In this document: positions 48,001 to 54,000 of the stretch, in pieces
Position numbering within the stretch: the first letter of the stretch is position 1
Layout: every line of letters begins with the position of its first letter
Assembly: GCF_056712565.1 (NCBI RefSeq)
Contig: NZ_CM160072.1
Direction: 5' to 3' (one strand)
Length of the DNA stretch: 64,000 nucleotides
Position numbers: made by a program

Positions 48001-51000
48001 CACGCAGGATCTGCATATCTTCGGCAAACCGCTGGCGATTGATGCAGCGAATGGTCACTTTTTTGCGCACCTGATCCATCAGTTTTTTTAGCGCCGGAGA
48101 GAAAGTGAGATCGGTTCGCTGCATCCACCACGCCAGTAAATCAATGCCTTTGTGATAACCCAGTTGTTCAATATGCGCGGCATACCACGGTTTGCCGTGT
48201 GGCATCATCGCACAGGGCGGAGTGTCAAAACCTTCAATCAGTAATCCGCTTTCCTGATTGATATTCAGGCTGAAAGGCCCGCTGATCTTACTTGCACCTT
48301 GTGACTTCAACCACGCTTCCGCTGTACCAAACAACGCGGCAAAAACCTGCGGATCATCAATGGAGTCAATCATGCCGAAATGACCGGTATCTTCACCGTA
48401 ACGCTCACGGTGCAAGGTATCGATTTGCGCGGTAATCCGCCCGACTATCTGCCCGGCTTTTTTTGCTACCCACGCCTGCCAGATGATATGGTCCGTCCCC
48501 GGATTCTTCGCAGACAAATGCTCGCTGCGTTCAATGAATAAAGGGGGTATCCAGTTTGGATCATCGGGATAAAGTGATGACGGAAAAGCGATAAATGCCT
48601 TAAGGTCTTTTTTATTAATTACTTTTTCAATTTTAATCATCAGCAGATCGCATTCCATATCTCTGTGGATAACAAATAATTAACGGTGAAAAACAGGTTG
48701 CAACAGCAACGAACGGCATCTTAATAATCAACCCAATGAATACAAACAAAGAATAAATAGTATTTATTAATGATTACGATAAGGTCAAAGACTACACAGA
48801 AGCGCCACAATGCCTCTTGTCGATTTAAGGCGACCGGACAAGGCTCCTTCTTAATATATTCACAAATTAAATATCATTCACAATAAAAACAAAAAAGCCA
48901 AACTTATTATTTAAATCAATGTTCATTTTCACACCGATGAAAATACTATCTCATTTATCTTTTATGCCTATATAATCCACCGCATTATTGTCATTTTATT
49001 TTTGATATCCAATTTTTTCGTGGTGTATATGTCTAATAAAATCTTTACGCATTCCCTACCTATGCGCTATGCCGATTTTCCAACGCTGGTTGATGCTTTG
49101 GACTACGCCGCTCTGAGTAGCGCCGGAATGAATTTTTATGACAGACGTTGCCAACTTGAAGATCAACTGGAATATCAGACGTTAAAAGCGCGTGCCGAAG
49201 CTGGTGCGAAAAGGTTGTTATCGCTGAACCTGAAAAAAGGCGATCGCGTGGCGCTGATTGCCGAAACGAGTAGCGGGTTTGTAGAGGCTTTTTTTGCCTG
49301 CCAGTATGCCGGCTTAGTCGCCGTCCCGTTGGCGATTCCAATGGGCGTAGGTCAGCGGGATTCCTGGAGCGCCAAACTGCAGGGTTTACTGGCAAGTTGC
49401 CAGCCCGCAGCCATTATCACTGGTGATGAGTGGTTGCCACTGGTCAATGCCGCGACGCATAACAACAACCCCGAATTACATGTTTTAAGCCACGCCTGGT
49501 TTAAGGCATTACCGGAAGCCGATGTTGTGCTCCAGCGTCCAGTTCCAAACGATATCGCCTACCTCCAGTACACCTCCGGCAGCACCCGTTTTCCCCGTGG
49601 CGTCATTATCACCCATCACGAAGTGATGGCTAATCTACGTGCTATAAGCCACGATGGGATTAAATTACGCCCTGGCGACCGCTGCGTCTCCTGGCTGCCT
49701 TTCTACCATGATATGGGACTGGTCGGCTTTCTCCTGACCCCCGTCGCCACGCAGCTTTCAGTAGATTATTTGCGCACTCAGGATTTTGCCATGCGTCCTC
49801 TGCAATGGCTTAAATTGATCAGTAAAAATCGTGGCACCGTTTCCGTTGCACCGCCGTTTGGCTATGAATTGTGCCAGCGCCGCGTGAATGAAAAAGATCT
49901 CGCTGAACTGGATCTTTCCTGCTGGCGCGTCGCTGGTATTGGCGCAGAACCCATATCCGCAGAACAACTCCATCAATTCGCTGAATGTTTCCGTCAGGTT
50001 AACTTTGACGATAAAACTTTCATGCCGTGCTACGGACTGGCAGAAAATGCGCTGGCTGTCAGCTTCTCTGATGAAGCCTGCGGGGTTGTGGTTAACGAAG
50101 TGGATCGCGACATCCTCGAATACCAGGGTAAAGCCGTCGCGCCGGGTGCTGAAACACGCGCCGTATCGACTTTCGTCAACTGCGGTAAAGCGTTGCCGGA
50201 ACATGGCATTGAAATCCGCAATGAAGCAGATATACCTGTCGCGGAACGTGTGGTAGGCCATATTTGCATCTCCGGCCCCAGCCTGATGAGCGGGTACTTT
50301 GGCGACCAGGTTTCGCAAGACGAGATTGCCGCGACGGGCTGGTTAGACACCGGCGACCTTGGTTATCTGCTGGACGGTTATCTGTATGTCACCGGACGCA
50401 TTAAAGATCTGATTATTATTCGTGGCCGTAATATCTGGCCGCAGGATATTGAATACATTGCGGAACAGGAGCCGGAAATTCATTCTGGCGATGCGATTGC
50501 TTTTGTTACCGCCCAGGAAAAAATCATTTTGCAGATCCAGTGTCGGATCAGCGACGAAGAACGTCGCGGGCAGCTTATCCACGCGCTGGCAGCTCGGATC
50601 CAAAGCGAATTTGGCGTTACCGCGGATATCGATCTGTTGCCGCCCCACAGTATTCCCCGAACATCCTCCGGCAAGCCTGCCCGTGCGGAAGCGAAAAAAC
50701 GTTATCAGAAGGCTTATGCTGCCAGTCTTCATGTGCAGGAATCCCTGGCATGAATCAAACTGTCGCGGTGACGGGCGCTACCGGGTTTATCGGTAAATAT
50801 ATTATTGATAACCTGCTCGCCCGCGGCTTTCATGTTCGCGCATTGACGCGTACTGCCCGCGCTCACGTCAATGATAATCTCACTTGGGTGCGCGGTTCGC
50901 TGGAAGATACACATTCGCTTAGCGAACTGGTTGCCGGAGCCAGCGCGGTGGTCCATTGCGCCGGGCAAGTGCGCGGGCACAAAGAAGAGATTTTTACCCG

Positions 51001-54000
51001 CTGCAACGTTGACGGCAGCCTGCGCCTGATGCAAGCGGCAAAAGAGAGCGGCTTTTGCCAACGTTTTCTGTTTATCTCTTCGCTGGCGGCGCGCCATCCC
51101 GAACTCTCCTGGTACGCAAATTCCAAACACGTCGCTGAACAACGGCTGACTGCAATGGCTGACGAAATTACGTTGGGCGTTTTTCGCCCGACAGCCGTGT
51201 ATGGTCCCGGCGATAAAGAGTTAAAACCGCTGTTTGACTGGATGCTGCGCGGTCTGCTGCCACGACTTGGCACGCCAGAGACACAGCTCTCTTTTCTTCA
51301 CGTCACCGATTTTGCGCAAGCAGTGAGTCAGTGGTTAAGCGCCGAAACTGTACAGACGCAAACCTATGAATTATGCGATGGCGTCGCCGGAGGCTATGAC
51401 TGGCAACGTGTCCAACAGCTTGTTGCCGATGTCCGCTGTGGTTCCGTGCGGATGGTCGGTATTCCTCAGCCGCTACTCACCTGCCTTGCGGATATCAGTA
51501 CCGCGTTGAACCGTCTGGCGGGTAAAGAACCGATGCTGACTCGTTCGAAAATCCGTGAATTAACCCATGCCGACTGGTCGGCAAGTAATAACCGTATTTC
51601 TGAAGATATTAATTGGTTTCCCGGGATTAGCCTGGAACACGCATTACGCAACGGGCTATTTTGATTGTCTTGTTTAAAGGTGTGTTAACGTTTCTATGGT
51701 AAATCGTGAAATAGTAATGGATTACATCCTTTCCTGTTTACAGGATTTGGTCGAAAACGGTGTGGAAATTAAGCCCGACAGCGATCTCGTCAACGATCTT
51801 GGCCTGGAGTCGATCAAAGTGATGGATCTCTTAATGATGCTGGAAGACAGATTCGATATTTCCATTCCTATTAATATTCTGCTGGATGTCAAAACCCCTG
51901 CGCAATTAATGGAAACTCTACTTCCATGGCTGGAGAATAACTAATGGGGCTATACGATAAATATGCGCGCCTTGCTGGCGAGCGCCTGCAATTTAGTGAC
52001 AACGGGTTAACACCATTTGGCACCTGTATTGATGAAGTGTATTCCGCCACCGAAGGCCGGATCGGCAATAAAAAAGTGATTCTGGCCGGGACCAATAATT
52101 ATCTCGGTTTAACCTTTAATCATGATGCTATCCGCGAAGGTCAGGCAGCGTTAGCGGCCCAAGGCACCGGCACCACCGGTTCTCGTATGGCAAACGGCAG
52201 TTATGCGCCGCATCTGGCGTTAGAGAAAGAGATTGCCGAGTTTTTCAATCGCCCTACCGCTATCGTTTTTTCAACCGGTTATACCGCTAATTTAGGCGTC
52301 ATCAGCACACTTGCCGACCATAACGCCGTGGTGTTACTGGATGCCGACAGCCACGCCAGTATTTATGACGCCTGTTCTCTCGGCGGCGCGGAGATTATTC
52401 GTTTCCGCCATAATGACGTCAACGATCTGGAACGGCGCATGGTCCGCCTCGGTGAACGGGCGAAAGAGGCGATTATTATCGTTGAAGGCATCTACAGTAT
52501 GCTCGGTGACGTTGCGCCGCTGGCAGAAATTGTTGATATCAAACGTCGTCTCGGCGGATATTTAATTGTCGATGAAGCACATTCGTTTGGCGTGTTAGGC
52601 GCTACGGGGCGCGGACTGGCCGAAGCTGTCGGCGTTGAAGACGACGTGGATATTATCGTTGGCACCTTCAGTAAAAGTCTGGCCTCGATTGGCGGTTTTG
52701 CTGTCGGTTCGGAAGCGATGGAAGTGCTGCGCTACGGCAGCCGCCCGTATATTTTTACCGCCTCTCCTTCTCCGTCCTGCATTGCGACCGTGCGCTCGTC
52801 GTTAAGAACCATTGCCTCACAACCAGAGCTGCGCCAAAAGCTGATGGATAACGCCAACCATCTGTATGATGGTCTGCAAAAACTGGGTTACGAGTTAAGT
52901 TCACATATTAGCCCGGTAGTGCCAGTAATAATCGGTTCGAAAGAGGAAGGTTTACGCATCTGGCGCAAGCTTATTTCGCTGGGCGTTTATGTGAATCTTA
53001 TCCTGCCACCTGCCGCGCCTGCTGGCATCACGCTGCTGCGCTGTAGCGTAAACGCTGCCCACAGTCGTGAGCAAATCGATGCCATCATTCAGGCATTTGC
53101 TACTCAGAAGCAGTAATGTGAACCCGCCGTGGTGTTGCGCCACGGCGGGTTTAATGTTGTCTGTCATACCAATACACCAGGCTCAACGCCACCAGCACAA
53201 ACGCTACCGGTAAACCGAGCGCGGTAACAGGTGCGCTCAACGCAAATAGCAATCCCAGATTGACCATGATTTGATAGCTGATCCAGGTGAGTAAACCAAC
53301 GATGACGCCTACAGCGAGACGGCTACCCATCCCTGGCGAGCGCGGGACACTAAAGGTAAACGGCACAGCCAGCAAAATCATCGCCAGAGTCAAGATCGGT
53401 TGCCCCAGTTTTTCCCACAGTGCAAGGTGGTATTCGCTGCTGGGTTGCCCGGTATCCTGCAAATAATGGATGTAATGATTAAGCTGACGGACAGAAAAAG
53501 TATTCCCCGGCATCGATAACTCTTCAAGATTCATACTGGTGAAGGCCGATTGCCAGGCAAGATTATCTAATGTTTCCAGCGTTTCTTTGCCATTCAACCA
53601 TTTTTTATAATTCACACCATGCAGGATCCACGTTTTATCGTCTTCAATGGTGGCACTGCGCGCATAAATGTAGGATTCGAGCGAGAGATCGTCGCGGTAA
53701 TGAAAAATCTCCACGCCCACCGGCTGGCCCTGCTCGTTCAGCGATTTCACCGTCACAAATTCATTACCGCGCCTGGCCCAAAGCATATTGCCGATAATGT
53801 CATTGTCCTCCCCCAACGCGGTGGCAGTCGATTTGATTTGCAGCGCCTGTTGCTGCAATGGTGACGCCACCCACTCATCAATCGCGCCTAACGAAACAGT
53901 CCACAGTATCCCTGCAACCAGCGCCACCAGTGCAATGCGGAAGATAGAAAACCCCGTGCTGCGAATGGCGGTAAGCTCACTGTTTTTCGATAACTGCCCG

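What the first reader, a model, noticed from the sequence alone, without database searches (positions are those of the whole stretch)
49002..53116. Four-gene module resembling bacterial ceramide/sphingoid-base synthesis (FAAL - SDR reductase - ACP - SPT-like synthase)
A co-directional, translationally coupled operon encodes a fatty acyl-AMP ligase, an SDR reductase, a dedicated ACP and a serine-palmitoyltransferase-like alpha-oxoamine synthase. Overlaps are ATGA at 50750-50753 and TAATG at 51942-51946. The same four functions form the core of the characterised Caulobacter sphingolipid pathway (spt, acp, acyl-ACP synthetase, reductase cerR). A dedicated ACP plus FAAL argues against biotin (BioF) or threonine (Kbl) metabolism. 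From memory, K-12 lacks this module. The product (sphingoid base, ceramide, or another N-acyl amino-ketone lipid) is unknown.
Basis: partly seen in the sequence, partly recalled or inferred. Interest (0 to 1): 0.88.

Follow-up and report, generated by a model that had tools for sequence, protein, structure and literature searches.

The report
E. coli sphingolipid (ceramide) synthesis locus
The four genes are real and form the core of the Escherichia coli sphingolipid-synthesis locus, but this locus has already been published, partly tested biochemically and named in RefSeq, so only its natural product and role remain open.

Summary

- **Source.** The window is E. coli phylogroup B2 chromosome, 100% identical to UTI89.
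- **Genes.** FAAL (49029-50753), SDR (50750-51664), ACP (51696-51944) and the synthase (51944-53116) are co-directional, with the stated ATGA and TAATG overlaps.
- **Synthase identity.** It passes NCBI's curated serine palmitoyltransferase model (599.5 bits, cut-off 500) and fails the BioF, Kbl and ALAS cut-offs. It groups with characterised SPTs in 200 of 200 bootstraps.
- **Conservation.** The four-gene order is kept in 60 of 80 related loci, Caulobacter included.
- **Larger unit.** The unit also includes divergent yghO (tandem GNAT, bCerS-like), LptF/LptG paralogues and a flippase-like gene.
- **Prior work.** Padilla-Gómez et al. 2022 characterised the BL21(DE3) orthologues (95-99% identical) as AasR, AcpR and SPT that make 3-oxo-sphinganine. 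The FAAL is PDB 3PBK. A 2026 preprint draws this very UTI89 locus as a sphingolipid operon. RefSeq already names the gene spt.
- **Distribution.** The module is in 4067 of 5426 complete E. coli genomes. In K-12 an IS5 replaces it.
- **Still open.** I found no report of the native lipid or its function.

The parts
47516..48658 (-). yghO: candidate bacterial ceramide synthase (bCerS/'aca'-like acyl-CoA N-acyltransferase), transcribed divergently from the four-gene operon
   Evidence: No Pfam, NCBIfam or PDB sequence hit. The AlphaFold model has pLDDT 90.6 and a tandem-GNAT fold: Foldseek PDB 2WPW E 2.5e-15, also 5KF1, 7Q3A and MshD 1OZP. A homologue lies within the flank of 46 of 80 SPT loci. 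The Caulobacter sp. copy is 44% identical over 98% of the length and sits where CC_1154 lies. Named aca = yghO ECD_02850 in PMC9386255.
48659..49028 (.). AT-rich divergent intergenic region between yghO and the FAAL gene; presumed promoter and regulatory region
   Evidence: 370 nt at 31% G+C, against 52% for the module. Promoter-like matches do not exceed the shuffled expectation, so no promoter is assigned.
49029..50753 (+). Fatty acyl-AMP ligase (EcFAAL / AasR): adenylates a fatty acid and loads it on the dedicated ACP
   Evidence: NCBIfam NF006624, 867.9 bits (cut-off 600). PDB 3PBK, 1279 bits, near-identical over 574 aa. 97.7% identical to BL21 ECD_02851. Motifs YTSGSTRFPRG and SGK are present. 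The mechanical ORF start is TTG 49002.
50750..51664 (+). Extended SDR, NDUFA9/epimerase-like: candidate ceramide reductase (CerR/'epi')
   Evidence: Overlaps the FAAL stop by ATGA. Rossmann motif GATGFIG and YANSK are present. Nearest solved relatives are NAD-dependent epimerase and NDUFA9. 37% identical to the syntenic Caulobacter sp. gene. 95.4% identical to BL21 ECD_02852.
51696..51944 (+). Dedicated acyl carrier protein (AcpR)
   Evidence: ACP models match only below their cut-offs, best 35.6 bits, so it is not the housekeeping AcpP. Ser39 lies in GLESI. An ACP gene lies directly upstream of the SPT gene in 80 of 80 loci. 81 of 82 residues are identical to BL21 ECD_02853, which was shown to carry 4'-phosphopantetheine.
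51944..53116 (+). Serine palmitoyltransferase (spt)
   Evidence: TAATG overlap with the ACP gene. NF047599, 599.5 bits (cut-off 500). PDB 2JG2 and 2X8U, 377 and 376 bits. SPT clade in 200 of 200 bootstraps. PLP Lys244, His137, Asp210, His213 and Arg366 are conserved. 97.9% identical to BL21 ECD_02854.
53119..53153 (.). G+C-rich hairpin between the convergent spt and lptG2 genes; likely bidirectional terminator
   Evidence: 16-bp stem with 10 G-C pairs.
53151..54230 (-). LptG paralogue (LptG2), candidate sphingolipid exporter permease
   Evidence: TIGR04408, 298.4 bits. Annotated lptG in UTI89 in addition to the housekeeping copy. Found in the flank of 33 of 80 SPT loci. Caulobacter LptF2/G2 are implicated in sphingolipid transport.
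54227..55297 (-). LptF paralogue (LptF2)
   Evidence: TIGR04407, 317.7 bits. Found in 31 of 80 loci. An LptF2-like gene lies in the Caulobacter sp. locus.
55328..55888 (-). YtfJ-family protein, function unknown; linked to the locus only in Enterobacterales
   Evidence: TIGR01626, 213.9 bits. Found in 11 of 80 loci, all Enterobacterales.
55888..56724 (-). 278-aa all-helical protein with a CHAD-like fold, function unknown
56724..58073 (-). YghQ, MOP-flippase-like membrane protein; counterpart of the Caulobacter CC_1166 'potential flippase'
   Evidence: Weak MOP flippase match, 34.7 bits. 26-28% identical homologue directly upstream of the FAAL gene in Caulobacter loci L082 and L069. Truncated by IS5 in K-12.
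58119..58877 (-). YghR, P-loop (dTMP-kinase-like) protein; possible accessory gene of the locus
   Evidence: Sub-threshold dTMP kinase match, 32.8 bits. Co-occurs with SPT loci in Enterobacterales, a betaproteobacterial MAG, Luteibacter and Dyella: 17 of 80 loci. Membership in the unit is not shown.

Best explanation
This is the E. coli sphingolipid (dihydroceramide) biosynthesis locus of the 'Rhodobacteria' type.

Proposed pathway:
1. The FAAL (EcFAAL/AasR) adenylates a free C12-C16 fatty acid. It transfers the acyl group to the phosphopantetheine arm of the dedicated ACP (AcpR), not to CoA.
2. The PLP enzyme SPT condenses acyl-AcpR with L-serine, with loss of CO2, to give 3-oxo-sphinganine.
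3. The tandem-GNAT protein YghO, encoded divergently upstream, N-acylates the amino group.
4. The NDUFA9-like SDR reduces the 3-keto group to give dihydroceramide. The order of steps 3 and 4 is unsettled even in Caulobacter.
5. The adjacent LptF/LptG paralogues, probably powered by the housekeeping LptB, and the flippase-like YghQ would move the lipid to the outer membrane.

Steps 1 and 2 have been shown for near-identical E. coli proteins in the literature. Steps 3, 4 and 5 are inferred from homology and synteny.
For: **Identity of the enzymes**
- SPT scores 599.5 bits on NF047599 (cut-off 500). The FAAL scores 867.9 bits on NF006624 (cut-off 600).
- The closest solved structures to the synthase are Sphingomonas SPTs at 377 bits. 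The FAAL matches EcFAAL 3PBK.
- The SPT clade excludes E. coli BioF and Kbl in 200 of 200 bootstraps.
- Catalytic residues and the ACP serine are present.

**Synteny**
- FAAL-SDR-ACP-SPT is contiguous in 60 of 80 loci, and an ACP gene lies directly upstream of SPT in 80 of 80.
- The Caulobacter sp. locus runs YghQ-like, FAAL, SDR, ACP, SPT ... LptF2-like, YghO-like. This is the published order CC_1166 to CC_1162 ... CC_1156, CC_1154.

**YghO:** it has a tandem GNAT fold.

**Published biochemistry on BL21 orthologues** (81 of 82 ACP residues identical; the other proteins 95.4-97.9%)
- AcpREc carries 4'-PPT.
- AasREc, AcpREc and SPTEc together give 3-oxo-sphinganine.
- SPTEc prefers palmitoyl-AcpR (PMC9386255).
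- EcFAAL loads holo-ACP in vitro (PMC8460268).

**Transport and selection**
- Caulobacter LptF2/G2 bind LptB and are needed when anionic sphingolipid is made. The UTI89 locus is drawn alongside it.
- Purifying selection acts on all ten genes, with dN/dS of 0.04-0.20.
Against: - I found no paper reporting a sphingolipid in wild-type E. coli.
- BL21 with empty vector made no detectable 3-oxo-sphinganine. The locus may therefore be silent in laboratory culture.
- The published product identification for the E. coli enzymes rests mainly on TLC co-migration.
- No activity has been shown for YghO or the SDR from E. coli.
- The Caulobacter head-group genes (cpgABC and others) gave no hits in the E. 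coli locus, because different genes occupy that space. The final lipid cannot be the Caulobacter one.
- The Sphingomonas SPT residue Arg378 is Leu here, though this holds for the whole beta/gamma/Caulobacter clade.
Confidence: 0.88

Rival explanations
1. The synthase is a BioF- or Kbl-type enzyme, and the module serves biotin or threonine metabolism.
For: It belongs to the same alpha-oxoamine synthase family. It gives sub-threshold matches to bioF (334.5 bits) and Kbl (299.8 bits). Older database names call it 8-amino-7-oxononanoate synthase.
Against: It is below the curated cut-offs of both models and above that of SPT. It is only about 30% identical to E. coli's own BioF and Kbl, against 47-54% to SPTs, and falls outside them in 200 of 200 bootstraps. 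It is linked to a FAAL and an ACP in every related locus. K-12 lacks the module yet keeps bioF and kbl.
Confidence: 0.01
2. The module makes a different amino-ketone lipid, not a sphingoid base. Examples are a CAI-1-like signal, a sulfonolipid-type product from cysteate, or a 1-deoxy base from alanine or glycine.
For: The family includes CqsA and cysteate acyltransferases, which appear among weaker hits. Bacterial SPTs have relaxed amino-acid specificity according to PMC9386255 (section title seen). The native product is unreported.
Against: CqsA-type model NF005526 scores 224 bits against a cut-off of 428. Cysteate-C-fatty acyltransferase 28EH scores 203 bits against 377 for SPT. The BL21 enzyme incorporated L-[14C]serine into a product that co-migrates with 3-oxo-sphinganine.
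Confidence: 0.05
3. The locus is a silent relic in E. coli. The enzymes are competent, but no lipid is made under any natural condition.
For: No native sphingolipid has been reported. Empty-vector BL21 shows no product. The upstream region is AT-rich at 31% G+C, a composition typical of silenced genes. K-12 lost the locus without obvious cost.
Against: The module is intact in 4067 of 5426 complete genomes. All ten genes have dN/dS of 0.04-0.20 between phylogroups. The whole block is conserved across at least ten other enterobacterial genera at 60-86% identity. That is not expected of a relic.
Confidence: 0.06

Closest known systems
E. coli BL21(DE3) ECD_02850-ECD_02854 (yghO/aca, aasR, epi, acpR, spt), Padilla-Gómez et al. 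2022 (PMC9386255)
   Same: It is the same locus in another strain. Identities are YghO 97.9%, FAAL 97.7%, SDR 95.4%, ACP 81 of 82 residues, and SPT 97.9%. Order and neighbours are the same.
   Different: Only allelic differences, including a one-codon indel in the FAAL.
Caulobacter crescentus sphingolipid cluster CC_1168-CC_1152 (spt CC_1162, acpR CC_1163, epi/cerR CC_1164, aasR CC_1165, flippase CC_1166, lptF2/G2 CC_1156/1155, aca/bcerS CC_1154)
   Same: The same five biosynthetic functions are present, in the same aasR-cerR-acpR-spt order. The flippase-like gene and the LptF/G paralogues are also shared. Identities to a Caulobacter sp. locus are 53% (SPT), 44% (FAAL), 37% (SDR), 38% (ACP) and 44% (YghO).
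   Different: In E. coli, yghO is divergent and immediately upstream rather than 8 kb downstream. The Caulobacter ceramide-phosphoglycerate head-group genes (cpgABC and others) and lptC2 have no counterpart here. E. coli instead carries a YtfJ-family gene, a CHAD-like protein and P-loop proteins YghR/S/T. The end product is known in Caulobacter and unknown in E. coli.
Sphingomonas paucimobilis and S. wittichii soluble SPT (PDB 2JG2, 2X8U)
   Same: A soluble homodimer-type alpha-oxoamine synthase, 46.6% identical, with the PLP lysine and the His, Asp, His and Arg residues conserved.
   Different: SpSPT Arg378 corresponds to Leu here and in the whole beta/gamma/Caulobacter group. In Sphingomonas the aasR gene is elsewhere in the genome.
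EcFAAL, PDB 3PBK (Zhang et al. 2011, as cited in PMC8460268 and PMC11837247)
   Same: It is the same protein: 1279 bits, with a handful of substitutions over 574 residues. It was crystallised with lauroyl- and myristoyl-adenylate.
   Different: The FAAL papers I read (PMC8460268, PMC11837247) contain no word beginning 'sphingo'. They treat the enzyme as a model FAAL rather than as part of this pathway.

Membership tests
Bacterial serine palmitoyltransferase (SPT) | Scores above the curated equivalog cut-off for SPT and below those of BioF, Kbl, ALAS and CqsA | tested here: met
   NF047599 599.5 (cut-off 500); bioF 334.5 (426.45); Kbl 299.8 (460); ALAS 221.6 (338.55); CqsA-type 224.1 (428).
Bacterial serine palmitoyltransferase (SPT) | Groups phylogenetically with experimentally characterised SPTs rather than with BioF or Kbl | tested here: met
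   In a neighbour-joining tree of 26 sequences, the clade with S. paucimobilis SPT, Caulobacter and Nitrosomonas excludes E. coli BioF and Kbl in 200 of 200 bootstraps. PDB ranking agrees.
Bacterial serine palmitoyltransferase (SPT) | PLP-binding lysine and catalytic His, Asp, His and Arg residues | tested here: met
   K244, H137, D210, H213 and R366 align with SpSPT K265, H159, D231, H234 and R390. SpSPT R378 corresponds to Leu.
Bacterial serine palmitoyltransferase (SPT) | Condenses L-serine with a long-chain acyl thioester to give 3-oxo-sphinganine | not testable with these tools
   Reported for the 97.9% identical BL21 enzyme by TLC with L-[14C]serine, with a preference for palmitoyl-AcpR (PMC9386255).
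Rhodobacteria-type sphingolipid cluster (aasR-cerR-acpR-spt plus bcerS) | A dedicated ACP gene immediately upstream of spt, with a phosphopantetheine-attachment serine | tested here: met
   4-nt overlap with spt. Ser39 lies in GLESI. An ACP gene lies upstream of SPT in 80 of 80 loci. 4'-PPT labelling was shown for the BL21 protein.
Rhodobacteria-type sphingolipid cluster (aasR-cerR-acpR-spt plus bcerS) | A FAAL-type acyl-ACP synthetase (AasR) linked to acpR-spt | tested here: met
   NF006624 867.9 (cut-off 600). Identical in all but a few residues to 3PBK. Present in 68 of 80 loci. Acylation of the cognate ACP has been reported.
Rhodobacteria-type sphingolipid cluster (aasR-cerR-acpR-spt plus bcerS) | An NDUFA9/epimerase-like SDR (CerR/epi) in the cluster | tested here: met
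   GATGFIG and YANSK motifs are present. PDB neighbours are NDUFA9 and epimerase proteins. Present in 68 of 80 loci, and 37% identical to the syntenic Caulobacter sp. gene. Enzyme activity is not testable here and is unreported for E. coli.
Rhodobacteria-type sphingolipid cluster (aasR-cerR-acpR-spt plus bcerS) | A bCerS-type GNAT N-acyltransferase | tested here: met
   YghO has a tandem GNAT fold. It is 44% identical over 98% of its length to the Caulobacter sp. protein at the CC_1154 position. Activity is unreported for E. coli.
Rhodobacteria-type sphingolipid cluster (aasR-cerR-acpR-spt plus bcerS) | The organism actually contains ceramide or another sphingolipid | not testable with these tools
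   No report was found in five literature searches. Compounds migrating like sphinganine and ceramide appeared in BL21 only on over-expression.
Sphingolipid LptF2/LptG2 transporter | A second LptF/LptG pair encoded next to the sphingolipid genes | tested here: met
   TIGR04407 317.7 bits and TIGR04408 298.4 bits. Adjacent and convergent to spt. Found in 31 and 33 of 80 loci. Interaction with LptB and a role in transport were tested only in Caulobacter.

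The most novel reading that the evidence does not exclude
Most E. coli, including UPEC, Nissle and ETEC, and a dozen other enterobacterial genera may make a sphingolipid of their own kind under conditions not met in laboratory culture. Its head group or transport would be set by genes that the Caulobacter system lacks: a CHAD-like 278-aa protein, a YtfJ-family protein, the flippase-like YghQ and the P-loop proteins YghR/S/T. 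The lipid would reach the outer membrane through LptF2/G2. This would add a second, conditional outer-membrane lipid to the best-studied Gram-negative envelope.
Probability: 0.3. Interest if true: 0.6.

Novelty: already known. Interest (0 to 1): 0.2.

Why it matters
E. coli is usually taught as having no sphingolipids, yet three quarters of complete genomes carry a conserved ceramide pathway with its own Lpt-like exporter, and K-12 lost it. That fact matters for envelope biology and host interaction, because bacterial sphingolipids affect membrane integrity and virulence in Caulobacter (PMC11324152). The field already knows of the locus. What is missing is the native lipid, its inducing condition and its role. 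Nothing found here changes that picture. The only additions are a CHAD-like fold for the 278-aa protein, a confirmed tandem GNAT fold for YghO, and numbers for prevalence and selection.

Tried and rejected
- **BioF/Kbl/ALAS/CqsA assignment of the synthase.** Rejected on curated HMM cut-offs, PDB ranking and a bootstrap tree.
- **Sequence-based annotation of YghO and the 278-aa protein.** Pfam, NCBIfam and PDB sequence searches gave nothing significant. Only structure prediction with fold search was informative.
- **First locus scan.** The first attempt with an 18-sequence alignment failed for lack of a conserved stretch. A 6-sequence alignment worked.
- **First tree script.** It timed out and was rewritten.
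- **Promoter scan of the operon region.** It gave no more hits than shuffled sequence, so I assign no promoter.
- **Link between EcACP and this ACP.** I tried to match the EcACP of the eLife FAAL paper (UniProt A0A2X1NC35) to this ACP by accession. The cluster look-up did not list that accession, so the link stays presumed.
- **yghQ/R/S in the literature.** The searches found only an unrelated mutant list.
- **The Stankeviciute et al. 2022 ceramide-synthesis paper.** I could not locate it in the held library. Statements on the order of N-acylation and reduction rest on how other papers cite it.

Full report
**Where the window comes from**

The 10.8-kb stretch around the finding is 100% identical to the chromosomes of E. 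coli UTI89, S88, IHE3034, NU14 and other phylogroup B2 strains. The RefSeq annotation of UTI89 reads, in order: glcC, yghO (-), fatty acyl-AMP ligase (+), NAD-dependent epimerase/dehydratase family protein (+), acyl carrier protein (+), spt serine palmitoyltransferase (+), lptG (-), lptF (-), YtfJ family protein (-), hypothetical protein (-), 'lipopolysaccharide biosynthesis protein' (yghQ, -), yghR, yghS, yghT, pitB. NCBI's pipeline therefore already names the key gene.

**Checking the observation**

- The four ORFs are present.
- I read the junctions directly. GGCATGAATC gives the ATGA overlap at 50750-50753, and AACTAATGGGG gives TAATG at 51942-51946.
- The ACP gene follows the SDR gene after 31 nt.
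- A 16-bp G+C-rich hairpin at 53119-53153 separates spt from the convergent lptG paralogue.
- The start at 49002 is only the first in-frame TTG. RefSeq uses the ATG at 49029, and the crystallised EcFAAL construct begins with the residues that follow that ATG (SNKIF).

**What the four proteins are**

*The synthase.* Against NCBIfam it scores 599.5 bits on the SPT equivalog NF047599 (cut-off 500). It falls below the cut-offs of bioF (334.5 vs 426), Kbl (299.8 vs 460), ALAS (221.6 vs 338.6) and the CqsA-type synthase (224 vs 428). Against solved structures, the order is:

| Solved relative | Score (bits) |
|---|---|
| Sphingomonas paucimobilis and S. wittichii SPT | 377 and 376 |
| Sphingobacterium SPT | 267 |
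| Kbl | 207 |
| BioF | 182 |

The PLP lysine (K244) and the residues matching SpSPT H159, D231, H234 and R390 are conserved. SpSPT R378 corresponds to Leu, as it does in all close relatives.

I fetched E. coli K-12 BioF and Kbl and built a neighbour-joining tree of 26 sequences. The window protein sits with enterobacterial, Nitrosomonas, Nitrospira, Caulobacter and Sphingomonas SPTs. BioF and Kbl fall outside in 200 of 200 bootstraps. Identities are 47-54% to SPTs and about 30% to BioF and Kbl.

*The other three proteins.*
- The FAAL scores 867.9 bits on NF006624 (cut-off 600). It is the protein of PDB 3PBK (1279 bits).
- The SDR has GATGFIG and YANSK motifs. Its nearest solved relatives are NAD-dependent epimerases and the NDUFA9 subunit of complex I.
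- The ACP matches ACP models only below their cut-offs, so it is not the housekeeping AcpP. It has the attachment serine in GLESI.

**Synteny**

A scan of one genome per species with an SPT alignment gave 596 confirmed matches, of which the best 80 loci were kept. I searched these with eleven proteins of the window.

| Feature | Loci (of 80) |
|---|---|
| ACP gene directly upstream of SPT | 80 |
| FAAL-SDR-ACP-SPT contiguous and in the same order | 60 |
| YghO homologue within the flank | 46 |
| LptG-like / LptF-like | 33 / 31 |
| YghQ-like | 18 |
| YghR-like | 17 |
| 278-aa protein | 13 |
| YtfJ-like | 11 |

The full ten-gene block is shared with Hafnia, Pseudocitrobacter, Shimwellia, Citrobacter youngae, Pluralibacter, Cedecea, Mangrovibacter and Rosenbergiella. 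Erwinia endophytica, Tatumella and Serratia bockelmannii carry yghO and the four-gene operon, but no LptF2/G2-to-YghQ block was found in the fetched flank; the Tatumella contig ends just after SPT.

In a Caulobacter sp. locus the order is YghQ-like, FAAL, SDR, ACP, SPT, then about 5 kb of other genes, an LptF-like gene and a YghO-like gene. This is the published layout of the C. crescentus cluster: CC_1166 flippase, CC_1165-CC_1162 and CC_1154 for dihydroceramide, and CC_1156/1155 LptF2/G2.

**YghO and the unnamed neighbour**

YghO has no Pfam, NCBIfam or PDB sequence match. An AlphaFold model built from 27 homologues (pLDDT 90.6) is a tandem GNAT. Foldseek matches include 2WPW (E 2.5e-15), 5KF1, 7Q3A and mycothiol synthase. 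This fits its published assignment as the N-acyltransferase 'aca'.

**What is already published**

- **Padilla-Gómez et al. 2022 (PMC9386255)** worked on the BL21(DE3) genes ECD_02851 (AasR), ECD_02853 (AcpR) and ECD_02854 (SPT). They showed that AcpREc carries 4'-phosphopantetheine. AasREc serves AcpREc but not the Caulobacter ACP. Co-expression of the three gives a compound migrating as 3-oxo-sphinganine. SPTEc prefers palmitoyl-AcpR over palmitoyl-CoA or acyl-AcpP. They assign ECD_02852 as a candidate keto-reductase and yghO ECD_02850 as a candidate N-acyltransferase, and they note that all five genes cluster only in Caulobacter and E. coli.
- **Identity to the window.** I located that locus in BL21(DE3). 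The window proteins are 95.4-97.9% identical, and the ACP matches at 81 of 82 residues.
- **EcFAAL** was crystallised with lauroyl- and myristoyl-adenylate. It loads an E. coli stand-alone holo-ACP in vitro.
- **A 2026 preprint (10.64898/2026.04.12.717747)** shows that Caulobacter LptF2/G2 bind each other and LptB, and cannot be deleted while anionic sphingolipid is made. [quoted passage not shown] That is the very sequence of this window.

**Distribution and selection**

The four-gene module is present with at least 80% coverage in 4067 of 5426 complete E. coli genomes, Nissle 1917 and ETEC strains among them. In MG1655 an IS5 lies between yghO and a truncated yghQ, so eight genes are missing. 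Between this B2 strain and BL21, dN/dS is 0.04-0.20 for nine of the ten genes; the ACP gene has no synonymous difference, so its ratio is undefined. This argues that the genes are kept by selection.

**What remains open**

None of five literature searches found a report of a sphingolipid in wild-type E. coli. Empty-vector BL21 shows no 3-oxo-sphinganine. The region upstream of the operon is 31% G+C, which is compatible with silencing, but I have no test of that.

The E. coli locus has none of the Caulobacter head-group genes. It carries instead a YtfJ-family protein, the CHAD-like protein, YghQ and the nearby P-loop proteins YghR/S/T. The last three gene types also accompany SPT loci in Luteibacter and Dyella. 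The final lipid may therefore differ from the Caulobacter one. This is the only part with room for something new, and it is inference from gene neighbourhood alone.

**Verdict**

The locus is already known and partly characterised, so the interest score is low.

Noticed in passing
[not shown]
   Followed up: partly
window 58119-58877 (yghR), with yghS and yghT further downstream; loci L035, L045, L050, L019: YghR-like P-loop (weakly dTMP-kinase-like) genes accompany SPT loci in Enterobacterales. They also do so in a betaproteobacterial MAG, Luteibacter and Dyella, together with YghQ-like and 278-aa-protein genes. They may belong to the sphingolipid unit, perhaps for a head group or phosphorylation. 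No paper linking them to sphingolipids was found.
   Followed up: partly
window 48659-49028: The 370-nt divergent intergenic region between yghO and the FAAL gene is only 31% G+C, against 52% for the operon. This composition is often tied to H-NS silencing and might explain why no product is seen in culture.
   Followed up: no
L002 (MG1655 3130146-3131340) compared with window 48600-57000: In K-12 an IS5 element (insH9) replaces the eight genes from the FAAL gene to the 278-aa gene and removes the 5' part of yghQ. The laboratory reference strain is therefore a natural deletion mutant of this locus.
   Followed up: yes
window 52994-53002 (SPT residues 351-353, VNLILPPAAPAG): The arginine of Sphingomonas SPT (R378), which lies just before the PPA(T/A)P loop, is Leu, Ile or Val in the E. 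coli, Nitrosomonas and Caulobacter group. These enzymes use acyl-ACP rather than acyl-CoA. Whether the two facts are linked is unknown.
   Followed up: partly
window 53151-54311 (- strand): The mechanical ORF for the LptG paralogue starts at a GTG at 54311 (386 aa). RefSeq starts it at 54230 (359 aa), which gives a 4-nt overlap with the stop of the LptF paralogue at 54227. The shorter form matches the LptG model from its position 2.
   Followed up: partly
window 1-47500: The rest of the window holds speC, tRNA-Phe (pheV) followed by an IS110 fragment, a K1-type capsule cluster (kps and neu genes with a polysialyltransferase), the T2SS-beta gsp operon with sslE, and the glc operon. The sphingolipid locus lies about 25 kb from the end of a classical pheV-linked virulence region but is itself part of the conserved backbone.
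   Followed up: no
E. coli genomes: One of the 4202 matching places of the four-gene module lies on a plasmid record rather than a chromosome, and a few genomes carry two copies. I did not look at these.
   Followed up: no
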